In this document: positions 2,885-59,296 of the stretch, one piece after another
How the letters are laid out: each line of letters begins with the position of its first letter
How positions within the stretch are numbered: the stretch's first letter is position 1
Virus record (IMG/VR): IMGVR_UViG_3300045988_182772
From: a virus
DNA: 64,000 nucleotides
Reading direction: 5' to 3' (one strand)
Translations under genes and position numbers: made by a program
The notes under the pieces: generated by a model
What the model was told of the DNA's origin: nothing
The model's database searches: none
The model's input: only the letters and a program-made list of their open reading frames with translations

Positions 2885-3030
2885 CGGAACTCAGGAACCT
2901 GTATTCCTGTTTATCGCAATTCTGCAAATGGCAAAAAGGCCGGTATGCTGTGACCATACAAAAGAAGTATCGCAAACATAAAGAAAGTTCAGTCAGCATC
3001 CTTTACGGATACTGGCTTTTTATATATCCC
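2885..3030 (+). repeat. conserved leader element copy 1 (hairpin H1 GGTATG/CATAC; terminator-like hairpin H2 then U-tract), directly before the RBS of 3064
   Basis: ccggtatgctgtgaccatacaaaagaagtatcgcaaacataaagaaagttcagtcagcatcc-tttac-ggatactggctttttatatatc. Shares about 80% identity with five other copies. Confidence 0.6.
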
Positions 3031-3063
3031 AAATCACACAAAACAAAAAGGAGAAATGAAAAA

Positions 3064-3249
3064 ATGTTTACAAACGACTACTTTACGAAAGCAATGGGTT
3101 ATGTCATCGACGGCGAATCCCGTGGCAGCAAGGAAAGTGCAATGAAGTACCTGACGGGTTCCGGTTTCATGGAGAGACAGGAAGCGGAGAGTTATCTCGC
3201 GCATCTGTTTCGCGTGTGGCGGAATCTGTCTGCTGCAAACGCCCGTTAA
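3064..3249 (+). CDS. small hypothetical protein (61 aa)
   Basis: aaaaaggagaaatg RBS. The ORF-track 2746..3249 ORF is trimmed to the ATG after the leader element. Confidence 0.4.
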   Translation: MFTNDYFTKAMGYVIDGESRGSKESAMKYLTGSGFMERQEAESYLAHLFRVWRNLSAANAR

Positions 3250-7295: not shown

Positions 7296-7432
7296 CCTAA
7301 GAACCTATATTCCTGCACAGCGCAATTCTGTAAGCGAGAAAAAGGTCGGTATGCTGAGACCATACAAAGGAAGTATCACAAACATAATGAAAGTTCAGTC
7401 TGCACCCAACGGGCGCAGGCTTTTATATAAAT
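7296..7432 (+). repeat. conserved leader element copy 2
   Basis: ggtcggtatgctgagaccatacaaaggaagtatcacaaacataatgaaagttcagtctgcaccc-aac-gggcgcaggcttttatataa. Confidence 0.6.
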
Positions 7433-7465
7433 CAAAAAAATAACAAGTAAGGAGAATCAGAAAAA

Positions 7466-8413
7466 ATGGTAACAAATGTGATTACCAAGTGTAACGGCAA
7501 GGATAAAGTCGTTGACTTTCGCGACAAGCTGAGCCGGTCGCTGCCTGACGAGTATGCGATGATGCACCAGTCTGGCGGCAAGAAAAATGGAGGAAAGACC
7601 TTTCCCTCTGTCATCGAAATGGTCATCTGTGATTTCACGAAGGGAACGGGCGATAAAAGTGTCACCTGTTCCGTGAATATTGACCCGACCATGTTCGACG
7701 AATGGCTCACCGTTTGCCGCTGCAATGTCGGTACGATGGCTGTTCCGCTGATTGGACGTGTCGCGAAGGATGCGCAGAAGCCATGGGAGACTGTTTTGGC
7801 CCCCAATGCTGTCAATGGTCTGATGAAGTCGATTCATCGCACTGCCAGCGTTGCGAAGGCTTATGGCAGTCTTCTGAGCAAGAGCGTAAGCATTGTGGCC
7901 AAGGCCGTTAAGGGAGCAGAAAAGAAGGATATCCTCATGGCAGCCGGCACAGTTCTGAAAGAAGCCCGCACTGCTATCGCGGATGCGGACATTGGGACTG
8001 CGCTCAAATTTCCGCACCGAATGGACTACCAGTATGCCATGTCCAAGGTCAATACCTACAAGAAAGGCACGGACGGATTTGCACCGGTGTCTATGCTGAC
8101 AGTCACGCATGACAGCGTTCGTCAGGACGGAGACCTTGCAATGTATCCTTGGGTCCTGAAAATCACCAACGGCGATGCCAAGGTGATTGAGCAGGCGACC
8201 GGGGCCACGACATTCGACGGAAAATCCATGCGAAACAAGGTGGAGGTATTTATCCAGGTTTCTGACCGCGATATGTACCGCATGATGTATCGCGTAACAC
8301 GCTTCATCGAAACGTGGGAGAATGCCATGTGCATCCCCGTCATCATCGAAGGAGAGAACAAAAAGGAGGCCGAACGTCAGGAGTATCTGGCACGGCAGAA
8401 GGAAGGAGTTTAA
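7466..8413 (+). CDS. hypothetical protein (315 aa)
   Basis: aaggagaatcag RBS then ATG. No recognisable motif. Confidence 0.4.
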   Translation: MVTNVITKCNGKDKVVDFRDKLSRSLPDEYAMMHQSGGKKNGGKTFPSVIEMVICDFTKGTGDKSVTCSVNIDPTMFDEWLTVCRCNVGTMAVPLIGRVAKDAQKPWETVLAPNAVNGLMKSIHRTASVAKAYGSLLSKSVSIVAKAVKGAEKKDILMAAGTVLKEARTAIADADIGTALKFPHRMDYQYAMSKVNTYKKGTDGFAPVSMLTVTHDSVRQDGDLAMYPWVLKITNGDAKVIEQATGATTFDGKSMRNKVEVFIQVSDRDMYRMMYRVTRFIETWENAMCIPVIIEGENKKEAERQEYLARQKEGV

Positions 8414-42640: not shown

Positions 42641-42651
42641 ACCTACATTGA

Positions 42652-42904: not shown

Positions 42905-44299
42905 ATGCCAGTATGTGTTTTAAGTGCAAACGGTGAACGGCTGATGCCAACCGAAAATTACGGCAAAGTGCGCCATCTGCTGAAGGAGGGCCGCGCTGTG
43001 ATTGCAAAGCGAAACCCGTTCACCATCCAGCTGACCTACGAGACCAGTACCTATACTCAGTCCATCGAAATGTGCGTCGGCACCGGATATGAGCATATCG
43101 GCGTCAGCATTAAGACAAAGGCAAAAGAGGTCGTATCGCAGCAATATGATTTGCTCACGAACGAGCGCTCCCGCCATGACGACTGCCGAGTGCACCGCCG
43201 GACGCGCAGAAACCACCTGCGGTATCGGGCTGCACGGTTCAATAACCGTGTATCCATCAGAAAGCCCGGTTGGATTGCTCCGTCCCTGGATAATAAGGTG
43301 GAGCGGCACCTGGATATTATCTCCCGCTATCTGTCTGTCATGCCTGTCACGGATGTCTTTATCAAGGCCGCAACATACGATACACAGCTCCTTGCGGCGC
43401 TGGAGGCAGGGGAGCCTGTCCCGCAGGGCAAGGACTATCAGCATGGGCCGCAGTACGGCCACGATACGCTGCGGGAAGCGGTCTTTGAACGAGACCACTA
43501 TACCTGTGTGTATTGCAAGAGAGGCCTGAAAGACGGCGCTATCCTTCATGTCCATCATGCCTACTACTGGAAGGGTCTGCATGGGAACAGCATGAGGGAG
43601 CTTGCGACCTGCTGCGAGAAGTGCAACACACCTGCCAATCACAAGGAGGGCGGGAAGCTGTGGGGCTTCGATAAGCCTCTGCGGAAATATACCGGCGAAG
43701 CGTTTATGAATAGCGTGCGCTGGATTCTCTATCAGCGTGCGATGGCCCGCTTCCAGGGTGTTGCGGAAGTACACATGACCTATGGCGTCATCTCCAAGCG
43801 CGTCCGCACCAACCTCGGCCTCCCGTATTCCTGCGCTACGGATGCCTACTGCATGGGCGAGCTGCGTCCGGAAGCCAGATGCGAAACAGAGGTCTTCCAG
43901 AAATACAGGCGAAACAACAGAGTCCTATCCAAATTCTATGACGCCAAATATTACGACACACGGGAAAAGGGAGTTATCCGTTCTGGCAACGAGCTGTCCT
44001 CCGGCAGGACGAACCGCAATCATAACCTTGACGGCGAAAATCTGCGCCGGTTCCGTGGCTGTAAGAAGTCAAAGGGCCGAACCTCGACCAGAAAGCAGAG
44101 ATATGCCATGCAGCCGGGAGATATCGTGGTCTACGGCAATCGCAAATACGTTTCCAAGGGCTGCTCCAGCTATGGCAGGGCATTAAGCCTACTCACGGAT
44201 GGAAAGCCGCTTATGGTCAGCATGAAGAAAATCCAGCTTGTTCGTCATAAGGGCGGCTGGGTGCGGCTTCCCCATGCAGCAGCCGAGGCAAAAAAATAA
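42905..44299 (+). CDS. iscB: IscB-like RNA-guided nuclease candidate (PLMP-like N-terminus, RRxRR arginine-rich bridge helix, HNH), 465 aa. The RuvC-I catalytic Asp is not evident.
   Basis: MPVCVLSANGERLMPTENYGKVRHLLKEGRAVIAKRNPFTIQL (PLMP-like). HRRTRRNHLRYRAARF (RRxRR). HNH CVYCKR...HVHHAYYW...CCEKCNTPANH. RBS aaaggaaaaaataag then ATG. Track ORF 42863 trimmed because the upstream codons lie inside repeat 3. Confidence 0.6.
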   Translation: MPVCVLSANGERLMPTENYGKVRHLLKEGRAVIAKRNPFTIQLTYETSTYTQSIEMCVGTGYEHIGVSIKTKAKEVVSQQYDLLTNERSRHDDCRVHRRTRRNHLRYRAARFNNRVSIRKPGWIAPSLDNKVERHLDIISRYLSVMPVTDVFIKAATYDTQLLAALEAGEPVPQGKDYQHGPQYGHDTLREAVFERDHYTCVYCKRGLKDGAILHVHHAYYWKGLHGNSMRELATCCEKCNTPANHKEGGKLWGFDKPLRKYTGEAFMNSVRWILYQRAMARFQGVAEVHMTYGVISKRVRTNLGLPYSCATDAYCMGELRPEARCETEVFQKYRRNNRVLSKFYDAKYYDTREKGVIRSGNELSSGRTNRNHNLDGENLRRFRGCKKSKGRTSTRKQRYAMQPGDIVVYGNRKYVSKGCSSYGRALSLLTDGKPLMVSMKKIQLVRHKGGWVRLPHAAAEAKK

Positions 44300-44346
44300 C
44301 CACCTGCGGATAAACCGTGGGCGGTGGAAATTGACAAAGCGGGGCC

Positions 44347-44385
44347 TTTTTGGTAAGATAACAATGCTCCAAAAGGAGCCAGAAA
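44347..44385 (+). promoter_or_regulatory. sigmaA-type promoter (TTGACA-N17-TAAGAT) for the small peptide gene
   Basis: ttgacaaagcggggcctttttggtaagataac. Confidence 0.4.
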
Positions 44386-44441
44386 GGCGTTACCATATAC
44401 GGTAGGCGGTCGGCACTTCCCTGTGGAGGGAGGTGATGCCA

Positions 44442-44528
44442 ATGGTTACTTACGAATCGCTTTTTGCGTATTCTCTTGTTATCATCGGCCTTGTGGGTCT
44501 GATAGTTCAGATTTGCAAACGAAAATGA
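44442..44528 (+). CDS. 28-aa hydrophobic peptide with Lys/Arg C-terminus (type I toxin-like)
   Basis: MVTYESLFAYSLVIIGLVGLIVQICKRK. RBS ggagggaggtg 7 nt upstream. Followed by a hairpin atgaccg...cggtcat. Confidence 0.3.
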   Translation: MVTYESLFAYSLVIIGLVGLIVQICKRK

Positions 44529-44682
44529 CCGCCCCTCGCCAAAGGAAGACGGTCATTTCGTTTGACTCTATTCTCTTAGGCTGACCGCTTATCGGTATCG
44601 CCTTTCTGCTTTTATTATACACCAGCAAGCCGCTTTGTCAAGCAAGACAAGGCGGCTTTTGCCGTCGGAAAGGAGTTTTCCT

Positions 44683-45180
44683 ATGAAAAACATCATGCTC
44701 AGCATCCGACCTGAGTGGCTCCAGAAAATCCTGTCGGGCCAGAAGACCGTGGAGCTGCGCCTGTCCAGACCGAACCTTACGCCGCCCTTCATGGTATTTC
44801 TCTACTGCTCCTGCAAGGGTACAAAGAAGCCCGGTGAAATTCTTGAAATCCATAGCGGCGGCAAAATCTACAAGGCAAACGGTCTTGTGGTAGGGGAGTT
44901 TACCTGTACCGAAATTGACCGTGTGGTGCGCGTGGGCTATATGGGCAGCAACGCGCCGCTTCAATACTGTGTCAACGCACAACCTGGAAACTACACCCCA
45001 GCGGGGAAACTGTATGAGGACGCCTGCCTCACCGTGAAGCAAGCAGAGGACTACCTCTGTGGCCGCGTGGGATACGGATGGCACATCTCTGATGTGCAGA
45101 CCTATGACCGGCCCAAGAGCCTCGACTGCTTCGCACTTGCGAGAGCACCGCAGAGTTGGCAGTACGTCCACGATTTTTAA
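44683..45180 (+). CDS. ASCH-domain protein
   Basis: MKNIMLSIRPEWLQKILSGQKTVELR matches the ASCH N-terminal signature. RBS aaaggag. Confidence 0.5.
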   Translation: MKNIMLSIRPEWLQKILSGQKTVELRLSRPNLTPPFMVFLYCSCKGTKKPGEILEIHSGGKIYKANGLVVGEFTCTEIDRVVRVGYMGSNAPLQYCVNAQPGNYTPAGKLYEDACLTVKQAEDYLCGRVGYGWHISDVQTYDRPKSLDCFALARAPQSWQYVHDF

Positions 45181-45195
45181 GGAGGGATTCAAAAA

Positions 45196-45411
45196 ATGGC
45201 AAATTACAGAGTTTGTTTTCGGCTGCCCACATTTGTGGTACAGCTGAGCTTTGAGGCGGCAGAGAGGGATATCTCATACGAGGAAATTGCTGCATCCATC
45301 AACAAAGAGAAGGTCGCGGAACTTCTGTGTCTTGACGCACTGGGCTACAGTGCGGAAGACATAGAAATCATCACCCCGGAAGAGTATGACGAGGAGGTTG
45401 GAGCGGAATGA
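45196..45411 (+). CDS. small acidic hypothetical protein (71 aa)
   Basis: RBS aaggaggg. Confidence 0.35.
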   Translation: MANYRVCFRLPTFVVQLSFEAAERDISYEEIAASINKEKVAELLCLDALGYSAEDIEIITPEEYDEEVGAE

Positions 45412-46670
45412 ACACTGAGGAGCGTTTCCTGCTTCGCTCGTCAGTAGAATGGCGAAAGAATTTGATGCAGGATTGCTTGTGTATGCCGTGTGCTGAGTTC
45501 TCTGACTCTTTCGACGCAGCTGTAGACGCTGCCATCGCCACATTCCCTGAGTTGGAGCGGGAAGCTATCTTAAAACGCTACCGCGACGGTCTTACACCAA
45601 CACAATGCGCAAACGCACTGAAAATTGACATCGGCAAGTTCTACTCTTGCTTCGACCTCGCCATAAGGAGGCTGCGTCACCCCAAATATGCGGGGGGTAT
45701 CCTGAAAGAAATGCGCCGGTTTGCAGGCAGCCCTCTCGCCTCTGCTTTGAAGGAGGCCATTGAGAATGGCAACTGGAAAAAAATCGAGGAGTTGTGCGAT
45801 TCTGTTCCGTTTCAGTGCCTCAATTTCTCGACTCGCACCAAGAACTGCCTTATGTTCAGTGGTGCCCAAAGTATCGGCGATGTTGTTCGACTGATAGAGA
45901 GCGGCAAACTGAAGAATCTGCGCCAATGCGGGCAGGGGACCCTTCAGAATATTATCGACGTACTGGAAAAGGCTCTGCCGTTCCATTTCATCCTTGGAAA
46001 GCCAGCTCAATTCTGTCCGGAAACGAGTGATGCCTTCACCCGGAAGGAACACACTCGCCAGCTCTCTGCCATGCTGGAGCGATACATCGACCCGCGCAAC
46101 GACCCACGCATCTACTGGGCGAGAGAGGTCACATTCGACTACTCTACGAACCACAAAATCCGCGTGGACTATATGCGCTTTCAGCCGCTCAACAATTCGA
46201 CCTCCGGCATTGAGAAGGGGGACTTCTACGCCTACGAGGTCAAGTCCTCTGTGGAGGATTTCAAATCTCCTAACGGGCACAACTTCATCGCGGACTACAA
46301 CTACTACGTTATGCCCGCAGACGTCTTCGAAGCGGTGAAGGATACTGTGCCATACGGCGTCGGTGTGCTTTGCCCGGACGGCGGGCATCTGCGATGCGTG
46401 AGGAAAGCCGTGAGGAAGGACCGAACCAGACCGGTCAGCGAGATGCTGCTCATGCTGTGGCGCAGCTCACGAAGAGATTTTCCCGCCACTGACGTGGCCC
46501 CGGTAATGCACACCCGCTGGGCGCATCTTGGCGGGGACGAGTGGTGTTGCCCTGCGTGCGGCTTTGTCATTACCACTGAGGGCAGTTGGGACAAGCCTAC
46601 CAAAAAATACTGCGAGGATTGCGGGGCCAAGATGGACGGAGGTGCTGACCATGAAGACAGACAAGATTAA
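45408..46670 (+). CDS. regulatory protein with sigma-70 region-4-type HTH at the N-terminus and a C-terminal zinc ribbon
   Basis: ELEREAILKRYRDGLTPTQCANALKIDIGKFYSCFDLAIRRLRH (region 4-like). C-terminal CCPACG...CEDCG. Confidence 0.4.
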   Translation: MNTEERFLLRSSVEWRKNLMQDCLCMPCAEFSDSFDAAVDAAIATFPELEREAILKRYRDGLTPTQCANALKIDIGKFYSCFDLAIRRLRHPKYAGGILKEMRRFAGSPLASALKEAIENGNWKKIEELCDSVPFQCLNFSTRTKNCLMFSGAQSIGDVVRLIESGKLKNLRQCGQGTLQNIIDVLEKALPFHFILGKPAQFCPETSDAFTRKEHTRQLSAMLERYIDPRNDPRIYWAREVTFDYSTNHKIRVDYMRFQPLNNSTSGIEKGDFYAYEVKSSVEDFKSPNGHNFIADYNYYVMPADVFEAVKDTVPYGVGVLCPDGGHLRCVRKAVRKDRTRPVSEMLLMLWRSSRRDFPATDVAPVMHTRWAHLGGDEWCCPACGFVITTEGSWDKPTKKYCEDCGAKMDGGADHEDRQD

Positions 46671-47037
46671 CCAGCCTGAGTTCGCCCCGGAGGAGTGGCG
46701 GAAGGCGGCCATTATGTACGATACATCCTTTGCCTGGTGTAAAAATCAAATTTCAGCCTGGGGTAAGAATCAAATTTCATTTACACCGGGCTTTAACGAG
46801 ATGTTCGATGAAGCGCTGGACACACTTCCTGAGCGAAACCGCGATATCGTCCAAAAGTATTTTCGTGACAGAATGACGTTTTCGCAAATCGCCGACCTGC
46901 ACGGCACCAGCAGAAGCATAGTTCGCCATCTGTGTATCTGGACGGTATGGAGGGTCATGAATTTGATTCTGCTGCGAGAAGGAAGCAACCAAAATGCCGC
47001 GCCACAAACAGGCGGAGGAACTGAAGGTGGGTATTGA
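46651..47037 (+). CDS. small sigma-70 region-4-like HTH protein
   Basis: LPERNRDIVQKYFRDRMTFSQIADLHGTSRSIVRHL. In-frame ATG with RBS overlapping the upstream gene end. Confidence 0.4.
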   Translation: MKTDKINQPEFAPEEWRKAAIMYDTSFAWCKNQISAWGKNQISFTPGFNEMFDEALDTLPERNRDIVQKYFRDRMTFSQIADLHGTSRSIVRHLCIWTVWRVMNLILLREGSNQNAAPQTGGGTEGGY

Positions 47038-47521
47038 CATCAATAGCCTGCCGCTTTCCGCACAGATTCAGGTGCGTGCAAAGCTCGACGAGCAGAAGCG
47101 CGAACAGAACCAGCAGCGAACAAAAAAACAGTCGGAAGCACAGAAAAGGCAAAAACAGCCGAAAGAAGCGGACTCTGCTGAGCCATCCAAATATCGCAAT
47201 GTAAAGGTTTTCCGCGTGGTGGATGGAGAAACCGTGAAATTCCCCAGCAAGCGGGAGGCACGCCGCTTCGATGAACTGTATTTGCAGTACAAGGGCGGTG
47301 CAATCCAGGACCTGCGGCTCCAGCAGGACTTCACGCTGGTCGAGGGCTATACACGGCCAAATGGCAAGCGGGTTCGCCCAATGGTCTATAAGGCAGATTT
47401 CGTATACCTTCGCAACGGTAAACGCATCGTGGAAGACGCGAAGGGAAAACGAACCGAAAAGTATCTCATGAAACGCAAACTCATGTTGGAAAAGTACGGA
47501 ATCGAAATTTCGGAGGTGTAA
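46994..47521 (+). CDS. DUF1064-family protein (phage-type; basic N-terminus)
   Basis: SKREARRFDELYLQYKGGAIQDLRLQQDFTLVEGYTRPNGKRVRPMVYKADFVYL...VEDAKG fits the DUF1064 pattern. Confidence 0.45.
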   Translation: MPRHKQAEELKVGIDINSLPLSAQIQVRAKLDEQKREQNQQRTKKQSEAQKRQKQPKEADSAEPSKYRNVKVFRVVDGETVKFPSKREARRFDELYLQYKGGAIQDLRLQQDFTLVEGYTRPNGKRVRPMVYKADFVYLRNGKRIVEDAKGKRTEKYLMKRKLMLEKYGIEISEV

Positions 47522-47526
47522 TATCA

Positions 47527-48030
47527 ATGTTTGAAAACGGTAAGTTCCCAACGATTGAAGAGCTTTTGGAACGGGGAGAACACCTCATTCAGAAGGCAGT
47601 TGACGGAAAAAGATTAAGCGGCGAGGAAACGCATTTTCTCAAATTGCAAAATATATGGCTTGCGCAAAGGAGGGATGAACAGGAAAAAAACTGCGCGCGT
47701 CCTCTTGTGGAGCAGCTCAAGAAAACAACCCCCTTTGTGCAGGATGTATTCCGCAGCACCGAATATTCCGAGTTCGCCCTCTGGTGCATTGAGATTCTCA
47801 CTACCGCCAGCCGGCACAACGATGACGGCTCAAACGACATCTGCGGTTGTTGGATTACGGCAGACAACAGCACGACCTACGAGGAGATGTGTCGCCGTCT
47901 GGAAGGAGTGAAGACGAAAGCCGATATTCTGGCTCTCTCCACCACGCCAAGTACCGTTGAGGCAATCAGTACGGCCACACCGCGCTGGAGGGCGGAGGTG
48001 GAGCAACTCCGCGCACAACAGCAAAAATAG
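47527..48030 (+). CDS. hypothetical protein (167 aa)
   Basis: ORF with terminator at 48046-48076. Confidence 0.4.
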   Translation: MFENGKFPTIEELLERGEHLIQKAVDGKRLSGEETHFLKLQNIWLAQRRDEQEKNCARPLVEQLKKTTPFVQDVFRSTEYSEFALWCIEILTTASRHNDDGSNDICGCWITADNSTTYEEMCRRLEGVKTKADILALSTTPSTVEAISTATPRWRAEVEQLRAQQQK

Positions 48031-48045
48031 TCTCTCCCATCCTGA

Positions 48046-48076
48046 AAGGCCGTCAGCACATCGCTGGCGGCCTTTT
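48046..48076 (+). terminator. rho-independent terminator
   Basis: ggccgtcagcacatcgctggcggcc followed by ttttg. Confidence 0.55.
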
Positions 48077-48077
48077 G

Positions 48078-48110
48078 ATTGACAAGTAAGCTATTGTGTG
48101 GTATAATTGC
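48078..48110 (+). promoter_or_regulatory. promoter cassette P6
   Basis: ttgacaagtaagctattgtgtggtataattgc. Confidence 0.55.
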
Positions 48111-48129
48111 TTCATTCAGTGAAGGGGGG

Positions 48130-49251
48130 GTGGTTGACATCACGAATACCAGTAATTTAGCCGCTGACCGTGCGCTTGCCTATGAAGCCATTGAAAGGCA
48201 GCCTGAAACAGAAGAAATCGCAGCTTCGAATGAACAGGAGACCGAAGCGAAGCAGCCGGGAAATATCGGCGACCATGTGGCGATGTATCTCAGCCAAATT
48301 GGCAGCATCCCCATTATGCCGCAGGTGGAAGCGAATCGCTGCATTGAAAAAGTGCAGAAGGGGAATGCCGCTGCCGAACAGCTCGAAACGCTGCGGGTGA
48401 TTGCCGAGGAGAGCGGGTATGCAGTTGACCCCGAAATCAAGAAAGACCTGATGAAGGCCATAGAAGCAGGAAGACGGGCGAAAGATAAGGTTGTTGAGGG
48501 CAATCTTCGGCTTGTTGTGTCCATCGCAAAGAAATATATAAACTCAGCCGATTCTATGGTGTTCATGGACCTCATCCAGGAGGGCAACATTGGCCTCATG
48601 CGTTCCATCGACTCTTTTGACATTTCGAGGAATGTGAAGTTTTCCACCTACGCAACCTTCTGGATAAGGCAAAACATCACAAGAGCGCTTGCCACGACGG
48701 ACCCAGCCATTCGCAAGCCCATCTATGTTGCGGAGGGCAGGCGGAGCGTCAATAATGCAAAAGAACAAATGCAACAAAAAGGCTTACCTTGTGATGACCC
48801 TTTAGAAATCGCAAAATACATGGAGGGGGATGCGTGGGATTCCCTTTCAAAAAGGGAGCAGCAGAAAAAACTGCGCATCATCCAACACTCGCTCCAGTAC
48901 CGGAAGCCGGACTCGTTGGATGCGCCCGTCAATTCGGACGCCGCAAGCGATTCCAACACACCGCTTTCGGAATTCATCCCAAGCCATAACGAGTGGGATA
49001 ACCCGGAAATTTCAACGTCAGGGAAGGCACTATGGGAAACGATGGACAAAATCCTGCACGATATGCCCGCACGAGACGCCTGTGTGCTTCGCTTACGATT
49101 CGGATTGGAGGATGGTTGTGCTTATACCCTCAAAGAAATCGGGGACGAAATGGACTTAACGCGAGAGCGTGTCCGTCAGGTTACAGATAAAACACTCGAT
49201 AAGCTACGCAACGGAAAGGCAGGGAAGATGCTTCAGGACTTTCTTGAATAA
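48130..49251 (+). CDS. sigma-70-family RNA polymerase sigma factor (regions 1.2, 2, 3, 4). Start uncertain: GTG 48130, GTG 48277 or ATG 48283.
   Basis: MYLSQIGSIPIM (region 1.2). LRLVVSIAKKY...FSTYATFWIRQNITRAL (region 2). AYTLKEIGDEMDLTRERVRQV (region 4). The track start 48079 would include the promoter, so it was trimmed. Confidence 0.7.
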   Translation: MVDITNTSNLAADRALAYEAIERQPETEEIAASNEQETEAKQPGNIGDHVAMYLSQIGSIPIMPQVEANRCIEKVQKGNAAAEQLETLRVIAEESGYAVDPEIKKDLMKAIEAGRRAKDKVVEGNLRLVVSIAKKYINSADSMVFMDLIQEGNIGLMRSIDSFDISRNVKFSTYATFWIRQNITRALATTDPAIRKPIYVAEGRRSVNNAKEQMQQKGLPCDDPLEIAKYMEGDAWDSLSKREQQKKLRIIQHSLQYRKPDSLDAPVNSDAASDSNTPLSEFIPSHNEWDNPEISTSGKALWETMDKILHDMPARDACVLRLRFGLEDGCAYTLKEIGDEMDLTRERVRQVTDKTLDKLRNGKAGKMLQDFLE

Positions 49252-49252
49252 G

Positions 49253-49282
49253 AAACGCCGCCCAGATGGGCGGCGTTTTTTT
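49253..49282 (+). terminator. rho-independent terminator
   Basis: aaacgccgcccagatgggcggcg followed by ttttttt. Confidence 0.7.
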
Positions 49283-49359
49283 GCTATTCTCCGTTTCTTA
49301 AATCCAATCGAGCAGTTCCGCCAGCGTGAAGCGGACATTGCGCGTGACGATATGTATTC

Positions 49360-49500
49360 TTCGGTTCTCAGGTTCCCAACATTAAAATAGGCGTGTTTCC
49401 ATATTTGCCGGTATGCTCAGAGCATACAAAGGAAGTATCTCAAACACAAAGAAAGTTCAGTCAGCGGTTTTATCATGCCGCTGGCTTTTTATATATCAAA
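49360..49500 (+). repeat. conserved leader element copy 3
   Basis: ggttctcaggttcc...ccggtatgctcagagcatacaaaggaagtatctcaaacacaaagaaagttcagtcagcgg-ttttatcatg-ccgctggctttttatatatc. Confidence 0.6.
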
Positions 49501-49519
49501 AAAACACGAAAAAGGAGAA

Positions 49520-49891
49520 ATGAACATGAAAGCAATGATGTTTAAGAGGGGTTTCGGTGACGAAACAAAGTGGAAAGAGGTCTGCGCGGAGCTTGGGCTG
49601 CCGGAAGATACGGAGCAGGTTGAGTTGTCCGTATCCGCAACAAAGGTCCGTACCAGCCAAAACCGCAGTTGGGAAGCGACCGACGAGGAGATGTCCCGAA
49701 TTTGGGAACGCCTCGGCTCGTATTTCTTGCGCTGCGAGAGCATCTCCAGAACGAACATTCGCGTTTTCTGTGGCGGCGGAGATTCCTTTTCCGTTGTTCG
49801 CGGCACAACGCAGCCTGGATTCGTCGAGGTGGATGGACGGCTGATGGACTATGAAGACTTTGAAGCATGGCTGTACCAGATGGCAGCTTGA
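49520..49891 (+). CDS. hypothetical protein (123 aa)
   Basis: aaaaaggagaaatg directly after leader copy 3. Confidence 0.4.
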   Translation: MNMKAMMFKRGFGDETKWKEVCAELGLPEDTEQVELSVSATKVRTSQNRSWEATDEEMSRIWERLGSYFLRCESISRTNIRVFCGGGDSFSVVRGTTQPGFVEVDGRLMDYEDFEAWLYQMAA

Positions 49892-51375: not shown

Positions 51376-51399
51376 CATGTTTTGCCACAATCGAGTTCT

Positions 51400-51535
51400 C
51401 ATATTCTTGGGTTCTCCATCAGGAAATAGGTGATTTTTTCTCTTCTGCCGGTATGCTGAAATCATACAAAAGAAGTATCTCAAACACAAAGAAAATTCAG
51501 TCAGCGTCCGTTGCGGATGCTGGCTTTTATATATA
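51400..51535 (+). repeat. conserved leader element copy 4
   Basis: ccggtatgctgaaatcatacaaaagaagtatctcaaacacaaagaaaattcagtcagcgtcc-gttgc-ggatgctggcttttatatat. Confidence 0.6.
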
Positions 51536-51569
51536 AAAATTTCATAAACAAAAAGGAGAAACGAAAAAA

Positions 51570-52268
51570 ATGAAGAACAAGGCATATCTCTTACCAGCGT
51601 GCAAGACTGCTGACGGCGTTCCCATCGGCATTGGCTCCGAGGTGTACGCAATCACCTTTAAGCAGAAAGTCAACAAATACGGTCGGCTGTATCGTCCGTC
51701 CACGAGAGAGTTGGCGGTCGTAAAAGTAACGGTGTCTACTGTGACCTTCTCCGAATTTGTGGAACCCGGTTGGTTTGGCTGGACGGGCGTTGCCTATTCG
51801 GGAATGACCGAAGTCGAATGCTCTGATGGTAAAACGAAGACGTTTTCCTACTTGCCCGGTATCGAGGTCAGCCAGTACACCATCTTCGCATCCGAGGACG
51901 CCGCAAAGGCCGCCTTGGAGAAGGCGGAGGCGGGCGGCGGTCTCTATACGAGAGCCGGATTCCCGTTGATGCCTTCTTGGCAGATTGGCGAGGTACGGGC
52001 AGCTCTGGAGAAAGCTGAGCAGAGCACTGAGGAAGAGCCTTCCATCGTTCGCAACATCCCTTATGTCTCCGTTTGGGACGGCGGAAATTGCATTGCGGCG
52101 ACAAAGGCAGACGTCTGTCTGGACACAAAGCAGGTATTCAACATTCAGACCATTGACGTTGGAGATTCTGTCAATGTTCTGAACCATGAGTACATCGTGC
52201 TGCACGGAACAGAGTATACCGTTTTCCCGAAGGGCGAAGCGAAAGACGGCGCATACTGGCGTGACTGA
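51570..52268 (+). CDS. hypothetical protein (232 aa)
   Basis: aaaaaggagaaacg...atg after leader copy 4. Confidence 0.4.
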   Translation: MKNKAYLLPACKTADGVPIGIGSEVYAITFKQKVNKYGRLYRPSTRELAVVKVTVSTVTFSEFVEPGWFGWTGVAYSGMTEVECSDGKTKTFSYLPGIEVSQYTIFASEDAAKAALEKAEAGGGLYTRAGFPLMPSWQIGEVRAALEKAEQSTEEEPSIVRNIPYVSVWDGGNCIAATKADVCLDTKQVFNIQTIDVGDSVNVLNHEYIVLHGTEYTVFPKGEAKDGAYWRD

Positions 52269-54579: not shown

Positions 54580-54725
54580 TCTCCGGTTCTTCAGTTCTCA
54601 GGTTCCTGGAAGGTGAATGCGGCAATTTCCACTTCCGCCGGTATGCTGAGACCATACCAAAGAAGTATCACAAACAAAAAAGAAAGTTCAGTCAGCGCCC
54701 GCGTGGGTGCTGGCTTTTATATATC
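54580..54725 (+). repeat. conserved leader element copy 5
   Basis: ccggttcttcagttctcaggttcc...ccggtatgctgagaccataccaaagaagtatcacaaacaaaaaagaaagttcagtcagcgccc-gcgt-gggtgctggcttttatatatc. Confidence 0.6.
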
Positions 54726-54750
54726 ACATAACCATCACAAAAAAGGAGAA

Positions 54751-55503
54751 ATGAAAATGGAGATTTATGTAAATTACCTCGCCATTGAGGTCACTCGTCG
54801 CTGCAACATGAAATGCAACCACTGCCTGCGCGGAGATGCGCAAAATCTTGACATCTCAACCGCAGTTCTGTCGGGCATCGCTAAGCATATCCACCCTGCT
54901 TCCGTCATTTTCACGGGCGGCGAGCCGTCTTTGAATGTTCCGGCCATCAAGCGGTACTTTGAGCTTGCGGAGCGTTATGACACGATGCCGGCTGCTTTCT
55001 ATGTCGCCACCAACGGAGCGACGTCGAAGGAGCAGATGCGCGACCTCGCGCTGACGCTGCTGGAGGCATATTCTAAGATGGAAGAGCCAGATATGTGCGA
55101 GGTCGATGTCTCTGTGGATATGTTCCACGAGGCGTTCCGCGACAACGACAACGCGAAAATTCTGAGAGGCTTGTCCTTCCTCGGCCGGGGTAAAAAGCAT
55201 TCGGTCGAGGATGACGATTTGAGTTGGCTGCTCAATACCGGCCGTGCCAACAAGAACGGCATCGGCGTAAGAGCACCGGAGGTGCTCAGGACCGACATGG
55301 ACGAGCTGGTAACGGATTACTCCACAGAGTACAACAGCATTGCCTTCGATACGCTCTACATTGCCGCAAACGGTAATGTGGTAGACGGCTGTGACAGCAG
55401 TTACGAGGATATCGACGACGAGGAGAACGTGATTTGCAAGGTCAACCAGCTTCAGAAGAAAGTGAAAGACTATGTGAAGAACGCCGATTCTCAAATCTCA
55501 TAA
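54751..55503 (+). CDS. radical SAM domain protein (250 aa)
   Basis: CNMKCNHC (Cx3Cx2C) at residues ~17-24. Gly-rich SAM motif FTGGEPSL. Confidence 0.6.
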   Translation: MKMEIYVNYLAIEVTRRCNMKCNHCLRGDAQNLDISTAVLSGIAKHIHPASVIFTGGEPSLNVPAIKRYFELAERYDTMPAAFYVATNGATSKEQMRDLALTLLEAYSKMEEPDMCEVDVSVDMFHEAFRDNDNAKILRGLSFLGRGKKHSVEDDDLSWLLNTGRANKNGIGVRAPEVLRTDMDELVTDYSTEYNSIAFDTLYIAANGNVVDGCDSSYEDIDDEENVICKVNQLQKKVKDYVKNADSQIS

Positions 55504-58574: not shown

Positions 58575-58720
58575 ATTTGAGGTTCCTCGGTTCTTAGGTT
58601 CCAATTTGCAAAATGCGGAGTTTTCCGTGCCTGCCGGTATGCTGAGACCATACAAAAGAAGTATCACAAACACAAAGAAAATTCAGTCAGCGTCCATACG
58701 GATGCTGGCTTTTATATATC
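58575..58720 (+). repeat. conserved leader element copy 6
   Basis: gaggttcctcggttcttaggttcc...ccggtatgctgagaccatacaaaagaagtatcacaaacacaaagaaaattcagtcagcgtcc-atac-ggatgctggcttttatatatc. Confidence 0.6.
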
Positions 58721-58750
58721 AAAAAAATTTCAAAAAAGGAGAATTAAAAA

Positions 58751-59296
58751 ATGGAAAAAATGATTCAAATTGCAGAAAGCTACGGATGGGCAGTCGATAT
58801 GGACAGCGATAGCATCGAATTTAACCAGTGCAGTCCGGCGGGGGAAGATTTCTCCTTCACGGTTCTGACGAAAGACGCATCTGACGCCGAGAGTCTTGCA
58901 GCCGAAGTCCGTTCTTACGCGGACAGCTTCGATACCGAGGAACACGTCAAGATGTTGGTCGATGCGCAGGGCAGCGTGAGTGGTGTGCCAGACATCAAGA
59001 CGTTGGTGGAAGACGCTGACGCCATCCAAGAGATGCTCAACGACCTTGCTGACGCTCTTGAAAATGGCGACGCCAACACAGATGACGAGGAGACTGAAGC
59101 CTGCGGCCTCGAAGGCACTTACGAGTGGCTTCTGAACAACTTCGACATCGACGGCACGGCGGGTCGCATTATCCACAATGTTTTGGAGTATGCCGACCGC
59201 ATGACTGGCGACGAGCAGTATGAGTTCTTGACGGAGATGCTGGATGGAACGATTGGTCTGTCTGACCGCGAAATCAGGAATCTCTGCTGGAACTGA
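58751..59296 (+). CDS. very acidic hypothetical protein (181 aa; DNA-mimic-like composition)
   Basis: High D/E content throughout (DADAIQEMLNDLADALENGDANTDDEETEA...). Confidence 0.4.
   Translation: MEKMIQIAESYGWAVDMDSDSIEFNQCSPAGEDFSFTVLTKDASDAESLAAEVRSYADSFDTEEHVKMLVDAQGSVSGVPDIKTLVEDADAIQEMLNDLADALENGDANTDDEETEACGLEGTYEWLLNNFDIDGTAGRIIHNVLEYADRMTGDEQYEFLTEMLDGTIGLSDREIRNLCWN

What the first reader, a model, noticed from the sequence alone, without database searches (positions are those of the whole stretch)
45408..49251. Regulatory hub: full-length sigma-70 factor preceded by two sigma-region-4-only proteins and a DUF1064 protein
Two small proteins carry only a region-4-type HTH (one with a C-terminal zinc ribbon). 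Then come a DUF1064 protein, a hypothetical protein, and a complete sigma factor with regions 1.2-4 behind cassette P6. The small-gene island starts immediately after the sigma factor's terminator with leader copy 3, suggesting the sigma factor (or anti-sigma-like region-4 decoys) controls the leader-element genes.
Basis: inference. Interest (0 to 1): 0.5.

Follow-up and report, generated by a model that had tools for sequence, protein, structure and literature searches.

The report
SigA-like sigma gene heading leader-cassette operons

Summary
The genes exist, but two annotations need correcting. The "small region-4 protein with zinc ribbon" is a 420-aa multidomain protein: a weak r4-like HTH, an RNAP alpha-CTD domain, a nuclease-like domain and a Zn ribbon. 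The sigma ORF start at 48079 lies inside its own consensus promoter, so the true start is about 48130.

The window is a conjugative element with VirD4 and VirB4 genes, integrated in an Oscillospiraceae genome. It is not a phage.

The sigma is SigA-derived. It lacks region 1.1, has clade-specific insertions and keeps the canonical -10 and -35 contact residues. It forms an insulated unit of terminator, TTGACA-17-TGGTATAAT promoter, gene and terminator.

Its small mobile-element-specific clade was sampled in four lineages. In all four, the sigma gene lies just upstream of same-strand operon arrays that begin with a "leader cassette". In the distant lineages the cassette is a canonical TTGACT-17-TGGTAnnAT promoter, then GAAGTAT at about +9 to +16, then a covarying terminator hairpin and an RBS. 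In this element the -10 is TATGCT, the -35 is lost and GGTTCY repeats sit upstream.

A sigma-to-cassette link is therefore plausible. It would work as a SigA-like takeover or booster plus attenuation, not as an alternative promoter specificity. The r4 proteins are lineage-specific, and nothing supports them as decoys.

The parts
44683..45180 (+). ASCH-like gene, the first gene of the tightly packed operon that holds the 'hub' genes. It lies outside the finding's coordinates.
   Evidence: Pfam ASCH scores 20.1 bits, just below the cutoff of 21.2. phrog_3136 matches at 1.3e-22. A syntenic ORF lies at L056 188-721 (read from the translation; no comparison was run). No sigmaA-type promoter lies upstream, and a terminator-like hairpin at 44625-44660 precedes its RBS.
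45196..45411 (+). 71-aa acidic protein of unknown function.
   Evidence: It has no Pfam or PHROG hit. It has no homologue in L056, L074 or L075.
45408..46670 (+). 420-aa multidomain protein. Residues 38-76 form an r4-like HTH, residues 133-188 an RNAP alpha-CTD domain, and residues 213-353 a phrog_2776 domain that is PD-(D/E)xK-like by motif. Residues about 380-410 form a C-terminal CxxC...CxxC Zn ribbon.
   Evidence: Pfam RNA_pol_A_CTD scores 28.6 bits against GA 23.8, while Sigma70_r4_2 scores 15.9 against 25.7. There are NCBIfam RpoA hits. 15 of the 21 weak PDB hits are RpoA chains. phrog_2776 matches at 8.5e-17 and phrog_22543 at 7e-7. Only residues 211-358 have a homologue in L056, at 70-73% identity. 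The AF2 single-sequence model was unusable, with pLDDT 37.
46651..47037 (+). 128-aa protein with a sigma region-4-type HTH at residues about 50-101 and a novel N-terminus. Its start overlaps the upstream gene by 20 nt.
   Evidence: Pfam Sigma70_r4 scores 33 bits against 24.1. The best PDB hit is SigF region 4, at E 0.006. One search places the gene at 128 aa. It is absent from the L056, L074 and L075 neighbourhoods.
46994..47521 (+). DUF1064 protein, a member of the family PHROGs names as Holliday-junction resolvase.
   Evidence: Pfam DUF1064 scores 71.8 bits and phrog_190 matches at 1.8e-31. It is 59% identical to L056 1194-1622, which is syntenic with the sigma there.
47527..48030 (+). 167-aa soluble protein of unknown function, the last gene of the operon.
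   Evidence: It has no family hit. It is not homologous to the gene in the same position in L056.
48044..48076 (+). Intrinsic terminator that closes the upstream operon and insulates the sigma unit.
   Evidence: A 14-bp stem followed by UUUU folds at -25.3 kcal/mol, z -5.5.
48079..48107 (+). P6, a consensus sigmaA-type promoter of the form TTGACA-17-TATAAT with extended -10 TGGTATAAT. It is one of seven paralogous 'P cassettes' on the + strand, which start at 19818, about 20472, 31212, about 32905, 34602, 39059 and 48079.
   Evidence: It scores 12 of 12 with TG. It belongs to family D5 and appears in the listing. TGGTATAAT occurs 6 times against 0.2 expected, all on the + strand. The sigma gene also sits directly behind a leaderless promoter of this type in L074 (9936) and L075 (9939).
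48130..49251 (+). SigA-derived sigma factor of 373 aa. It has no region 1.1. Regions 1.2, 2, divergent 3 with insertions, and 4 are present.
   Evidence: Searches support this. In the representative search the only closer relative is P0122 at 49% identity, followed by the P0126 and P0128 clade at 37-39%. All four share a 2-aa insertion in r2.1, and most share an insertion of about 15 aa in r3.1.
49252..49283 (+). Intrinsic terminator of the sigma unit.
   Evidence: A GC-rich stem followed by U7 folds at -25.6 kcal/mol, z -6.5.
49355..49528 (+). Leader cassette L3. GGTTCY repeats lie at 49363-49376 and the -10 hexamer TATGCT at 49412-49417. The predicted TSS is about 49424. GAAGTAT lies at 49432-49438, the hairpin at 49459-49486 with a T-run to 49490, the RBS at about 49511-49518 and the ATG at 49526.
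   Evidence: Supported by the alignments and the anatomy across lineages. The hairpin has 11 pairs, 7 of them with compensatory changes. It was flagged as terminator-like.
2895..3066 (+). Leader cassette L1, with its -10 at 2944-2949. GGAAC replaces GGTTC in the upstream repeats.
7301..7468 (+). Leader cassette L2, with its -10 at 7350-7355. It heads the operon that encodes a 315-aa protein, Erf and a primase-like protein.
51395..51572 (+). Leader cassette L4, with its -10 at 51452-51457.
54585..54759 (+). Leader cassette L5, with its -10 at 54642-54647. It heads the operon that contains a radical-SAM gene.
58580..58753 (+). Leader cassette L6, with its -10 at 58638-58643.

Best explanation
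The finding lies in the last stretch of the 'core' part of a conjugative element longer than 100 kb, integrated in the chromosome of a gut Oscillospiraceae bacterium.

It has two separate pieces. The first is an operon (44683-48030) of nucleic-acid-processing genes and lineage-specific HTH genes. The second is an insulated one-gene unit made of a terminator, a leaderless consensus sigmaA promoter, a SigA-derived sigma gene and a terminator.

Proposed mechanism:
1. Host sigmaA transcribes the sigma gene from P6. (Inferred from the perfect consensus promoter.)
2. The element's sigma keeps the canonical -10 and -35 contact residues. It competes for core RNA polymerase and drives the element's own sigmaA-type promoters, namely the P cassettes and the leader cassettes. 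It acts as a booster or takeover factor, not as a factor with a new specificity. (Inferred.)
3. Every accessory operon begins with a leader cassette. This is a sigmaA-type promoter (here G-G-TATGCT with no -35), a TSS about 7 nt downstream, an invariant GAAGTAT at about +9 to +15, an unstructured A-rich leader, and an 11-12 bp covarying hairpin with a U-run that should terminate most transcripts after about 65 nt. (The anatomy is shown. Termination is inferred.)
4. Expression of the downstream genes therefore needs read-through. GAAGTAT is the only leader sequence conserved across all lineages, so it is the likely control signal. AAGTAT has the A(2) and T(6) of a -10 hexamer at the distance used by sigma-dependent promoter-proximal pauses. 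The module therefore resembles a lambdoid PR'-pause-tR' unit repeated many times. (Inference.)
5. In this lineage and in L056 the -35 has been replaced by 2-4 GGTTCY repeats that end 35-36 nt upstream of the -10, at about -48 to -70. These probably bind an element-encoded activator or repressor. The 128-aa r4-HTH protein and the 420-aa r4/alpha-CTD protein are candidates, but no evidence links them to the repeats.
For: Nature of the element:
- T4SS-DNA_transf scores 170 bits and TraG P-loop/AAA_10 scores 86 bits, and few ORFs hit PHROGs.
- It is integrated in a 570-kb Oscillospiraceae contig.

Sigma factor:
- It aligns to primary SigA structures at E about 1e-50.
- Region 2.4 reads FSTYATFWIRQNITRA and region 4.2 reads LTRERVRQV, against housekeeping FSTYATWWIRQAITRA and VTRERIRQI.
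- The clade-specific insertions are shared with P0122, P0126 and P0128.
- Only one closer cluster (49% identity) exists among 1.84 billion representatives.

Insulated unit.

Conserved synteny of sigma followed by a cassette array on the same strand:
- It holds in L056, L074, L075, L077 and L078.
- No cassettes were found on the opposite strand.

Cassette anatomy:
- Distant lineages have TTGACT-17-TGGTAnnAT, then 14-16 nt, then (A/G)GAAGTAT, a hairpin and T5-7.
- Here and in L056, TATGCT or TATACT occupies the same register, 14 nt before GAAGTAT.
- The same locus is polymorphic between TATGCT and TATACT.
- The C(-1)A(+1)T context at the predicted TSS is conserved.

Hairpin covariation: 7 of 11 pairs show compensatory changes across 23 sequences.

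Promoter content of the island: no other sigmaA-type promoter lies between 49.3 and 59.4 kb.

Weak co-variation between sigma and promoters: the one lineage whose sigma has lost canonical r4.2 and r2.4 residues (P0122: R586C, Q589R, T440I, R441Q) shows no TTGAC-type promoter anywhere in its 9.8-kb contig.
Against: - No expression data exist, so TSS, termination and read-through are all predicted.
- A sigma with canonical r4.2 should favour promoters with TTGACA. The leader cassettes of this element lack a -35, so host sigmaA plus an activator would explain them equally well.
- The sigma-cassette association rests on four related lineages of one element family. It may reflect shared ancestry and synteny rather than function.
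- GAAGTAT could be an RNA-level signal or an operator rather than a pause element. One cassette (L074 6100) reads GAAGTAG.
- The hairpin could serve mainly to block read-through from upstream, as reported for EGeRS1 in pLS20 (PMC8708921), or to stabilise the mRNA 5' end.
- No Q-like or other antiterminator gene was identified.
Confidence: 0.42

Rival explanations
1. The element's sigma is an alternative-specificity factor dedicated to the leader-cassette promoters, forming a cascade from host sigmaA to P6 to the sigma to the L regulon. The r4-only proteins modulate it as decoys or anti-sigma-like factors.
For: - The sigma unit sits exactly at the boundary between the P and L regions, and L3 starts about 100 nt after its terminator.
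- The L cassettes of this lineage lack a -35 and the T of the TG motif, so they are poor host-sigmaA promoters.
- The sigma's region 3.0 is unusual (IRKPIYVAEGRR against IRIPVHMVETIN) and lies opposite an invariant GCCGG at -17 to -13.
- The L056 sigma has non-canonical r4.2 and its cassettes also lack TTGAC.
Against: - The canonical -10 and -35 contact residues are kept.
- The sigma's own promoter class is a perfect sigmaA consensus.
- In the sister lineages the same cassettes carry canonical TTGACT-17-TGGTAnnAT promoters.
- The r4 proteins are absent from the relatives' sigma neighbourhoods.
- The r4 proteins have no similarity to known anti-sigma domains.
Confidence: 0.2
2. The sigma and the leader cassettes are functionally unrelated. 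The cassettes are the regulatory sequences of an establishment or accessory regulon, analogous to EGeRS in pLS20 and p576. Host sigmaA reads them, and an element-encoded repressor or activator bound to the GGTTCY repeats controls them. The leader hairpin serves as an insulator. The sigma has another role, such as boosting only the P-cassette core genes or remodelling host transcription.
For: - Many copies of a conserved sequence sit immediately upstream of the RBS of variable small-gene operons. Short direct repeats lie upstream of the promoter and a read-through block is built in. These features parallel EGeRS2 (dual heptamers plus a strong promoter) and EGeRS1 (blocks read-through) (PMC8708921).
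- The cassettes recombine and shuffle their downstream operons (Ld26 combines the 5' half of Ld02 with the 3' half of Ld14).
- The -10 keeps T(-12), A(-11), T(-7) and G(-14), so it remains within reach of sigmaA.
Against: - The sigma-then-cassette-array order is conserved in four lineages.
- No repressor gene has been identified.
- There is no sequence or size similarity to EGeRS1 (420-750 bp, highly structured). Folding the cassettes as ssDNA gives unremarkable z-scores of -0.6 to -2.7.
Confidence: 0.28
3. The cassettes are primarily small-RNA genes, each a promoter plus a terminator that yields an RNA of about 65 nt with a conserved 5' GGAAGUAU segment. These RNAs would act in trans, for example on plasmid copy number, transfer or anti-defence. 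Their position next to operon starts would be secondary.
For: - A promoter, a conserved 40-nt segment and a strong terminator form a complete short transcription unit.
- The default product of the main model is the same short RNA.
Against: - Every copy is followed at a fixed short distance by ATATA, an A-rich spacer, a strong RBS and an ORF on the same strand.
- The island operons have no other promoter.
- No Rfam family matches.
Confidence: 0.07

Closest known systems
Primary and group-2 sigma-70 factors (SigA/RpoD)
   Same: The protein aligns from region 1.2 to region 4.2 with primary SigA structures at about 35-40% identity. It keeps the -10 contacts (Q437, T440, Y430, W434) and the -35 contacts (R584, E585, R586, R588, Q589).
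   Different: It has no region 1.1. It scores far below the RpoD equivalog cut-offs (229 bits against 555). W433 is replaced by F and H455 by Y. It carries a 2-aa insertion in r2.1 and an insertion of about 15 aa in r3.1, so Pfam r3 is not detected. It is encoded on a mobile element and forms its own small clade.
SigN (ZpdN) of the Bacillus subtilis plasmid pBS32, and phage sigma cascades such as SPO1 gp28
   Same: Each is a sigma factor encoded on a mobile element that redirects host RNA polymerase to the element's genes. For SigN see PMC6751061 and PMC10601692. The phage cascades are cited from general knowledge.
   Different: Those factors have their own promoter specificities and are not SigA-like over their full length. 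Here the recognition residues and the target promoters look like the sigmaA consensus.
Establishment-gene regulatory sequences EGeRS1 and EGeRS2 of the pLS20 and p576 family of conjugative plasmids (PMC8708921)
   Same: Multiple paralogous regulatory sequences lie immediately upstream of the RBS of several variable small-gene operons on a Gram-positive conjugative element. Short direct repeats sit next to the promoter, as in EGeRS2. The sequences block read-through in one orientation, as in EGeRS1. The downstream genes are exchanged in a mosaic pattern.
   Different: The anatomy differs. This cassette is about 175 bp and consists of a sigmaA-type -10, GAAGTAT and a single terminator hairpin. 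It lacks the long structured region of EGeRS1, and neither the TTATCCC dual motifs nor an RHH Reg gene were seen. At least 13 copies are spread over more than 100 kb. It is associated with an element-encoded sigma.
Lambdoid late-gene module: PR', a sigma70-dependent promoter-proximal pause, tR' and the Q antiterminator (general knowledge)
   Same: A promoter is followed by a -10-like hexamer (AAGTAT, with A at position 2 and T at position 6) in the initially transcribed region, at about +9 to +16. An intrinsic terminator then precedes the genes.
   Different: There are many copies per element rather than one. The terminator is only about 45-75 nt from the TSS. No Q homologue was found. Pausing and antitermination are untested.
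Processive antitermination systems of Gram-positive conjugative elements: conAn of pLS20 (PMC8191782) and canT of Tn916 (PMC11658703)
   Same: Conjugative elements of Firmicutes gate their operons with terminators that must be overcome by element-encoded signals.
   Different: conAn and canT are single large RNA elements, with ConAn1 protein in the case of conAn, at the start of one long operon. Here a short cassette that carries its own promoter is repeated in front of each operon.
Small sigma-region-4-like HTH regulators of Firmicute mobile elements, such as Tn916 Orf7 and the RinA/ArpU late activators (general knowledge)
   Same: The 128-aa protein is a small protein whose only recognisable domain is a sigma r4-type HTH, and it is encoded next to DUF1064- and HNH-type genes.
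   Different: No membership in those families was detected. Only generic r4 models hit. It is not conserved in the related elements.

Membership tests
Sigma-70 family, group 1/2 (RpoD/SigA-like) | Region 2 is present (core binding, -10 recognition). | tested here: met
   Pfam Sigma70_r2 scores 64.2 bits against a cutoff of 24. The motif FSTYATFWIRQNITRA is present.
Sigma-70 family, group 1/2 (RpoD/SigA-like) | Region 4 is present with the -35 contact residues. | tested here: met
   Pfam Sigma70_r4 scores 51.1 bits against 24.1. LTRERVRQV keeps the equivalents of R584, E585, R586, R588 and Q589.
Sigma-70 family, group 1/2 (RpoD/SigA-like) | Regions 1.2 and 3 are present. These distinguish groups 1-2 (and 3, for region 3) from ECF sigmas. 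| tested here: inconclusive
   The Pfam r1.2 and r3 models do not hit. However, the alignment to SigA runs through DHVAMYLSQIGSIPIM (region 1.2) and through region 3 with insertions.
Housekeeping RpoD/SigA (NCBIfam equivalogs) | The whole-protein score exceeds the curated equivalog cut-off, and region 1.1 is present. | tested here: not met
   The best score is 229 bits against a cutoff of 555 (NF004208), and all RpoD models fall below their cutoffs. Region 1.1 is absent: only 48 residues precede region 1.2. By contrast, housekeeping Clostridia RpoDs carry PF03979 and PF04539.
RNA polymerase alpha C-terminal domain (PF03118), tested on the 420-aa protein | The protein matches the alpha-CTD helix-hairpin-helix domain above the gathering score. 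| tested here: met
   It scores 28.6 bits against 23.8 over residues 133-188. There are NCBIfam RpoA hits and RpoA PDB hits. Equivalents of R265, N268, C269 and G296 are present in STRTKNCL...CGQGT, read.
Sigma-70 region 4 HTH (PF04545/PF08281) | The protein matches above the gathering score. | tested here: met
   The 128-aa protein scores 33 bits against 24.1. The 420-aa protein does NOT meet the criterion, scoring 15.9 bits against 25.7.
DUF1064 (PF06356) | The protein matches above the gathering score. | tested here: met
   It scores 71.8 bits against 24.7. phrog_190 matches at 1.8e-31.
Anti-sigma factors or sigma decoys | The protein is homologous to a known anti-sigma domain, or it binds its cognate sigma. 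| tested here: not met
   The hub proteins give no anti-sigma family hit in Pfam, NCBIfam or PHROGs. Binding cannot be tested in silico. By synteny, a better candidate is the polytopic membrane protein whose gene overlaps the sigma stop codon in L056, L074 and L075. Its window homologue is at 41385-41987.
Lambdoid Q-type late promoter module | A promoter, a -10-like pause element in the initially transcribed region, a downstream terminator, and a Q antiterminator that binds near the promoter. | tested here: inconclusive
   The first three features are present by sequence. Pausing is not testable here, and no Q-like gene was recognised among the ORFs scanned.
EGeRS-type establishment regulon (pLS20/p576) | Paralogous regulatory sequences upstream of several variable operons, similarity to EGeRS1 or EGeRS2, and a Reg (RHH) repressor with TTATCCC dual motifs or a long structured region. 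| tested here: inconclusive
   The multi-copy arrangement upstream of RBSs is met. A long structured region is not met, since ssDNA fold z-scores range from -0.6 to -2.7. No TTATCCC motifs appear in the cassette alignment. Direct sequence comparison with EGeRS was not possible because those sequences were not at hand.
Conjugative element (ICE) rather than phage | A T4SS coupling protein and a VirB4-type ATPase are present, virion genes are absent, and the element is integrated in the chromosome. | tested here: met
   T4SS-DNA_transf scores 170 bits and TraG P-loop scores 86.5 bits. None of the 30 ORFs scanned with PHROGs gave a capsid or portal hit; two weak terminase-large-subunit hits fall on the T4SS ATPases and two tape-measure hits on the peptidoglycan hydrolase. 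The locus lies inside a 570-kb Oscillospiraceae contig. The relaxase and integrase were not located.

The most novel reading that the evidence does not exclude
The element-encoded SigA-like sigma and the leader cassette together form a sigma-dependent attenuation switch. Transcription started by host sigmaA pauses or terminates at the leader hairpin and yields only a short RNA of about 65 nt. Holoenzyme carrying the element's sigma behaves differently: through the GAAGTAT -10-like element at about +10 and the clade-specific insertions in regions 3.1 and 3.2, next to the RNA exit path, it reads through the hairpin. One SigA paralogue would then switch on more than a dozen insulated accessory or establishment operons without needing a new promoter specificity. 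This would be a way of using a sigma factor that has not been described before, found in a family of gut Firmicutes conjugative elements longer than 100 kb.
Probability: 0.13. Interest if true: 0.75.

Novelty: new variant of a known kind. Interest (0 to 1): 0.5.

Why it matters
The element is very common in human-gut metagenomes. The sigma protein occurs at 99% identity on hundreds of contigs.

If its SigA paralogue and the repeated cassette of promoter, GAAGTAT and terminator form one control system, this would be a simple and portable way for a large conjugative element to keep dozens of accessory or establishment genes silent and insulated in the chromosome, and then to switch them on together.

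It would extend the idea of an "establishment regulon" from Bacillus plasmids to gut Clostridia. It would also give a defined cis element (about 175 bp) and a single candidate trans factor for experiments.

The cassettes also act as recombination linkers that shuffle cargo operons between variants of the element. That bears on how such elements acquire anti-defence or fitness genes.

Tried and rejected
1. Phage origin. IMG/VR lists these contigs as viral, but PHROG scans of 30 ORFs gave no capsid or portal hits and only weak terminase-large hits on the T4SS ATPases, and Pfam found VirD4 and VirB4. Neither INPHARED nor PLSDB holds a close relative.
2. Frpo-like single-strand promoters. Folding the six cassettes as ssDNA gave only the small hairpins, with z-scores of -0.6 to -2.7.
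3. The GTATG-N7-CATAC palindrome as a structural or operator element. It is not conserved in L056, L074 or L075 and shows no covariation.
4. TATRCT as a -35 with GTATC as a -10 at a 17-nt spacing. I rejected this once the relatives showed TTGACT-17-TGGTAnnAT in register with TATRCT.
5. Sporulation, sigmaB or ECF-type promoter readings of the core. The spacings do not fit (inspection).
6. Rfam. No family matches the leader; only HEARO hits, at 42403-42566.
7. Collection scans for divergent cassettes using the TATACT variant. These returned only variants of the same element or chance matches.
8. The search for homologous proteins with the sigma. The results were saturated by 99%-identical copies. 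I worked around this through the representative search and by using P0122 and P0126 as queries.
9. An AlphaFold single-sequence model of the 420-aa protein. Its pLDDT was 37, so it was unusable and no fold search was run.
10. Homology between the 167-aa protein and the gene in the same position in L056. None was found.
11. NCBI names for the sigma cluster. None are recorded.

Full report
**What is at the coordinates**

The + strand from 44683 to 48030 carries six tightly packed, partly overlapping genes:
- An ASCH-like gene (44683-45180).
- A 71-aa acidic protein (45196-45411).
- A 420-aa protein (45408-46670).
- A 128-aa protein (46651-47037).
- A DUF1064 protein (46994-47521).
- A 167-aa protein with no family match (47527-48030).

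A strong terminator follows at 48044-48076. Next comes a perfect sigmaA-type promoter at 48079-48107, the sigma gene ending at 49251, and a second strong terminator at about 49252-49283. Leader copy 3 begins about 100 nt later.

Two corrections are needed. First, the ORF listing start of the sigma ORF (TTG 48079) is the first base of the -35 hexamer TTGACA. With the TSS expected near 48114, the CDS must start downstream, most likely at GTG 48130, which gives 373 aa. Database gene calls range from 373 to 392 aa.

Second, the "small region-4-only protein with a zinc ribbon" is a 420-aa multidomain protein:
- Its r4 match is below threshold (15.9 bits against 25.7).
- Its best-supported domain is an RNA polymerase alpha-CTD at residues 133-188 (28.6 bits against 23.8). 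NCBIfam RpoA models and 15 of 21 weak PDB matches point the same way.
- A phrog_2776 domain follows at residues 213-353, with a D...E-x-K-like motif, and then a CxxC...CxxC ribbon.
- A single-sequence AlphaFold model was too poor to use, with pLDDT 37.

The 128-aa protein does carry a sigma r4-type HTH above threshold (33 bits). DUF1064 is confirmed (71.8 bits).

**What the window is**

It is not a typical phage. PHROG scans of 30 ORFs gave almost nothing virion-like: no capsid or portal hits, and only weak terminase-large hits that fall on the T4SS ATPases. Pfam found:
- A T4SS coupling protein (17454-19730, 170 bits).
- A VirB4/TraG-type ATPase (22759-25251).
- A peptidoglycan hydrolase, a signal peptidase, a UvrD helicase, Erf, a primase-like protein and a VWA protein.

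The same locus, with the sigma at 98% identity, lies inside a 570-kb contig of Oscillospiraceae bacterium CM18GR_63. The sigma protein occurs at 99% identity on hundreds of metagenome contigs of up to 447 kb. The window therefore belongs to a very common, chromosomally integrated conjugative element. Leader copies span more than 100 kb of one 136-kb contig.

**Two promoter regimes**

Repeat analysis shows seven paralogous "P cassettes" of the form TTGAC(A/T)-17-TGGTATAAT. They start at 19818, about 20472, 31212, about 32905, 34602, 39059 and 48079, all on the + strand, and each is followed directly by an RBS. TGGTATAAT occurs 6 times against 0.2 expected.

The second class is the "leader cassette". 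The window holds six copies (L1-L6, with -10 elements at 2944, 7350, 49412, 51452, 54642 and 58638). The core occurs 6 times against 0.0 expected. The whole element family has at least 13 paralogous loci and 26 distinct variants, always on the gene strand. No other sigmaA-type promoter lies between 49.3 and 59.4 kb. The sigma gene is the last P-driven unit before the L-driven islands.

**The sigma factor**

It aligns with primary SigA/RpoD structures at E about 1e-50, from region 1.2 to the C-terminus. It scores far below every RpoD equivalog cut-off (229 bits against 555).

Compared with housekeeping Clostridia RpoD (FSTYATWWIRQAITRA, IRIPVHMVETIN, VTRERIRQIEAKALRKLRH), it reads FSTYATFWIRQNITRA, IRKPIYVAEGRR and LTRERVRQVTDKTLDKLRN. 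The -10 contacts (Q437, T440) and the -35 contacts (R584, E585, R586, R588, Q589) are kept. W433 is replaced by F and H455 by Y, and region 3.0 is unusual. Region 1.1 is missing.

A search of 1.84 billion cluster representatives found one closer cluster, P0122, at 49% identity. Next come P0126 and P0128 at 37-39%, and after them ordinary RpoDs. Ours, P0122, P0126 and P0128 share a 2-aa insertion in r2.1 (…KY.N..SM…) and an insertion of about 15 aa in r3.1 (W[DE].[LM][SG][KE]R…). The P0126 family lacks precomputed Pfam r3 and r1.1 hits, whereas bona fide RpoDs have them. P0122 still has a region-1.1-like N-terminus. This is a small clade that derives from a primary SigA.

**Comparative genomics of the neighbourhood**

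- P0122 (L056, 9.8 kb) has IscB C-terminus, ASCH, the nuclease-like domain alone, DUF1064, a 126-aa membrane/Cys protein, the sigma, membrane proteins and then small genes.
- Three of the window's island genes are 64-81% identical to genes in L056.
- P0126 (L074), P0312 (L075), P0316 (L077) and P0314 (L078) lie on contigs of 33 to 145 kb; contigs carrying these proteins reach 234 kb. The order there is UvrD helicase ... 658-aa protein, sigma, a small polytopic membrane protein, and then a long one-strand array of small unknown genes.
- The UvrD helicase and the 739-aa protein of the window are 52-56% identical to those of L074.
- The 71-aa protein, the N-terminal r4/alpha-CTD half and Zn ribbon of the 420-aa protein, the 128-aa r4 protein and the 167-aa protein have no counterpart in these neighbourhoods.

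The "hub" is therefore not a conserved module. The sigma is the conserved feature.

**The leader cassette across lineages is the key result**

In L074, L075, L077 and L078 the cassettes read as follows: TTGAC(T/G/C), 17 nt, TGGTAnnAT, 14-16 nt, (A/G)GAAGTAT, about 40-55 AT-rich nt, a GC-rich hairpin, T5-7, ATAT, an RBS and an ATG. They are canonical extended -10 sigmaA-type promoters followed by a leader and an intrinsic terminator.

In our element and in L056 the hexamer TATGCT or TATACT sits in exactly the same register, 14 nt before GAAGTAT. One locus is polymorphic between TATGCT and TATACT across metagenomes. The G-G at -14/-13 and a C-A-T at the predicted start are conserved.

This identifies TATRCT as the -10 element. 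It places the TSS near 49424 for L3 and puts GAAGTAT at about +9 to +15.

In our lineage and in L056 no -35 is conserved. Information content at the expected position is about 0. Instead, 2-4 GGTTCY repeats with an 8-nt period end 35-36 nt upstream of the -10, and a GAAT and a TT patch lie between them and the -10. In L1 and L2 the repeats read GGAAC.

The hairpin has 11 pairs, and 7 of them show compensatory changes across 23 distinct sequences. The 36 nt upstream of it are predicted to be unstructured. For L3 the hairpin with its U-run folds at -19 kcal/mol, z -4.3.

The cassettes are not Frpo-like ssDNA promoters. They match no Rfam family.

**Interpretation**

The sigma gene is made from a leaderless perfect sigmaA promoter in three lineages: ours at 48079, L074 at 9936 and L075 at 9939. 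Host SigA should therefore express it. Its DNA-contact residues predict sigmaA-like specificity, which matches both the P cassettes and the canonical cassettes of the sister lineages.

The most economical reading is that the element carries a SigA paralogue that boosts or takes over transcription of its own consensus-type promoters. The accessory operons are additionally gated by a leader terminator.

GAAGTAT is the only leader sequence conserved across all lineages. AAGTAT has the A(2) and T(6) of a -10 hexamer, and it lies at a distance from the start that is known (general knowledge of lambdoid PR' promoters) to support sigma-dependent promoter-proximal pausing. The cassette thus resembles a lambdoid promoter-pause-terminator module repeated many times. 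No antiterminator gene was recognised.

In this lineage the cassettes have lost the -35 and gained the GGTTCY repeats. This points to an extra DNA-binding factor. The r4-HTH proteins are candidates only because they are nearby.

One weak piece of covariation fits the idea that the sigma reads element promoters. The single lineage whose sigma lost canonical residues (P0122: T440I, R441Q, R586C, Q589R) shows no TTGAC-type promoter in its 9.8 kb.

All mechanistic steps are inference. There are no expression data.

**Comparison with known systems**

- The protein is a sigma-70 family member of SigA type but fails the housekeeping RpoD criteria.
- Element-encoded sigma factors are known, for example SigN of pBS32 (PMC6751061) and the phage cascades, but those have their own promoter specificities.
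- The nearest published concept for the repeated cassettes is the establishment regulon of pLS20-family plasmids. There, EGeRS1 or EGeRS2 sequences precede several variable operons, EGeRS2 has dual heptamer operators next to a strong promoter, and EGeRS1 blocks read-through (PMC8708921). The anatomy here is different.
- Terminator-gated operons with element-encoded antitermination are known for pLS20 (conAn, PMC8191782) and Tn916 (canT, PMC11658703). Those are single large RNA elements.

I found no description of this sigma clade or of this cassette.

**Verdict**

A functional link between the sigma and the leader-cassette operons is plausible, and conserved synteny supports it. However, the sigma looks like a consensus-specificity SigA paralogue, the r4 proteins are lineage-specific extras, and nothing supports a decoy or anti-sigma role for them.

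By synteny, a better anti-sigma candidate is the polytopic membrane protein whose gene overlaps the sigma stop codon in the other lineages. Its window homologue is at 41385-41987.

The finding is a new variant of known kinds, namely element-encoded sigma factors and repeated operon-leader regulatory cassettes of conjugative elements. Its interest is moderate. Interest would rise considerably if the sigma turned out to control read-through at the leader terminators.

Noticed in passing
window 42403-44299: A HEARO (omega) RNA (Rfam 87 bits) lies upstream of an IscB-type RRXRR plus HNH protein (478-aa ORF). Three 39-nt direct repeats at 42708, 42774 and 42842 overlap the annotated start of the ORF. 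The IscB C-terminus is also present at the same position in the distant relative L056, so this copy is syntenic and not a recent insertion.
   Followed up: partly
window 44331-44660: This looks like a type I toxin-antitoxin module. A promoter (TTGACA-17-TAAGAT with TG) and an RBS precede a 30-aa hydrophobic peptide ORF at 44436-44528 (Pfam Hol_Tox 16.9 bits, below the cutoff). A perfect TTGACA-16-TATAAT promoter faces it on the minus strand (44641 to 44614), embedded in a hairpin that sits just before the RBS of the hub operon.
   Followed up: partly
window 44600-44700: The operon that holds the 'hub' genes (44683-48030) has no recognisable sigmaA-type or leader-type promoter of its own. It is preceded by a terminator-like hairpin (-23.7 kcal/mol). 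How it is transcribed is unexplained.
   Followed up: partly
window 32905-34070: A TnpB (IS605 OrfB/Cas12f-like TNB, 370 aa) sits directly behind a P-type promoter (TGGTATAAT at 32926). The element thus carries both an IscB and a TnpB, each in the element's own transcription framework.
   Followed up: no
window 41385-41987; L056 3494-4072; L074 11352-11714; L075 11364-11699: In the three other lineages the gene overlapping the sigma stop codon encodes a small polytopic membrane protein, an arrangement typical of sigma/anti-sigma pairs. The window homologue of the L056 protein (29% identity) lies 6 kb upstream of the sigma, which is monocistronic here.
   Followed up: partly
L067 (Ld26), L001-type (Ld02), L031 (Ld14); window 49459-49486 compared with L002/L004/L007: Leader cassettes act as recombination joints. 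One metagenomic variant combines the 5' half of the L5-type cassette with the 3' half, and the downstream operon, of another cassette. The L3 hairpin of this window differs completely from the L3 hairpin of otherwise identical variants of the element.
   Followed up: partly
L074 20931-21368 (minus strand): A second, unrelated ORF with an RNA polymerase alpha-CTD domain occurs in a distant member of the same element family. Stand-alone or fused alpha-CTD domains may therefore be a recurring feature of these sigma-carrying elements.
   Followed up: no
window 19818-39087: The P cassettes share more than the two hexamers. Their spacers resemble AAGTAAG..T.AAGTGTGG and their initially transcribed regions resemble ATAAGC(A/G)TAAAG. 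They are therefore paralogous copies and may share a regulator. They drive a signal peptidase, an S1-domain protein, a flotillin/SPFH protein, TnpB, a UDG-family protein, the UvrD helicase and the sigma.
   Followed up: partly
window 1168-2274 and 54757-55503: The cargo includes an SLH-domain protein with an anthrax-lethal-factor-like (ATLF) domain. It also includes a radical-SAM protein as the first gene behind leader cassette L5.
   Followed up: no
window 46482-46642: The only nucleotide-level match to the phage collection is a 161-nt stretch (88.8% identity) inside the Zn-ribbon end of the 420-aa gene, in an unannotated human-faecal 'Bacteriophage sp.' contig (MT836068.1). This suggests that the ribbon module is exchanged between elements.
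   Followed up: no
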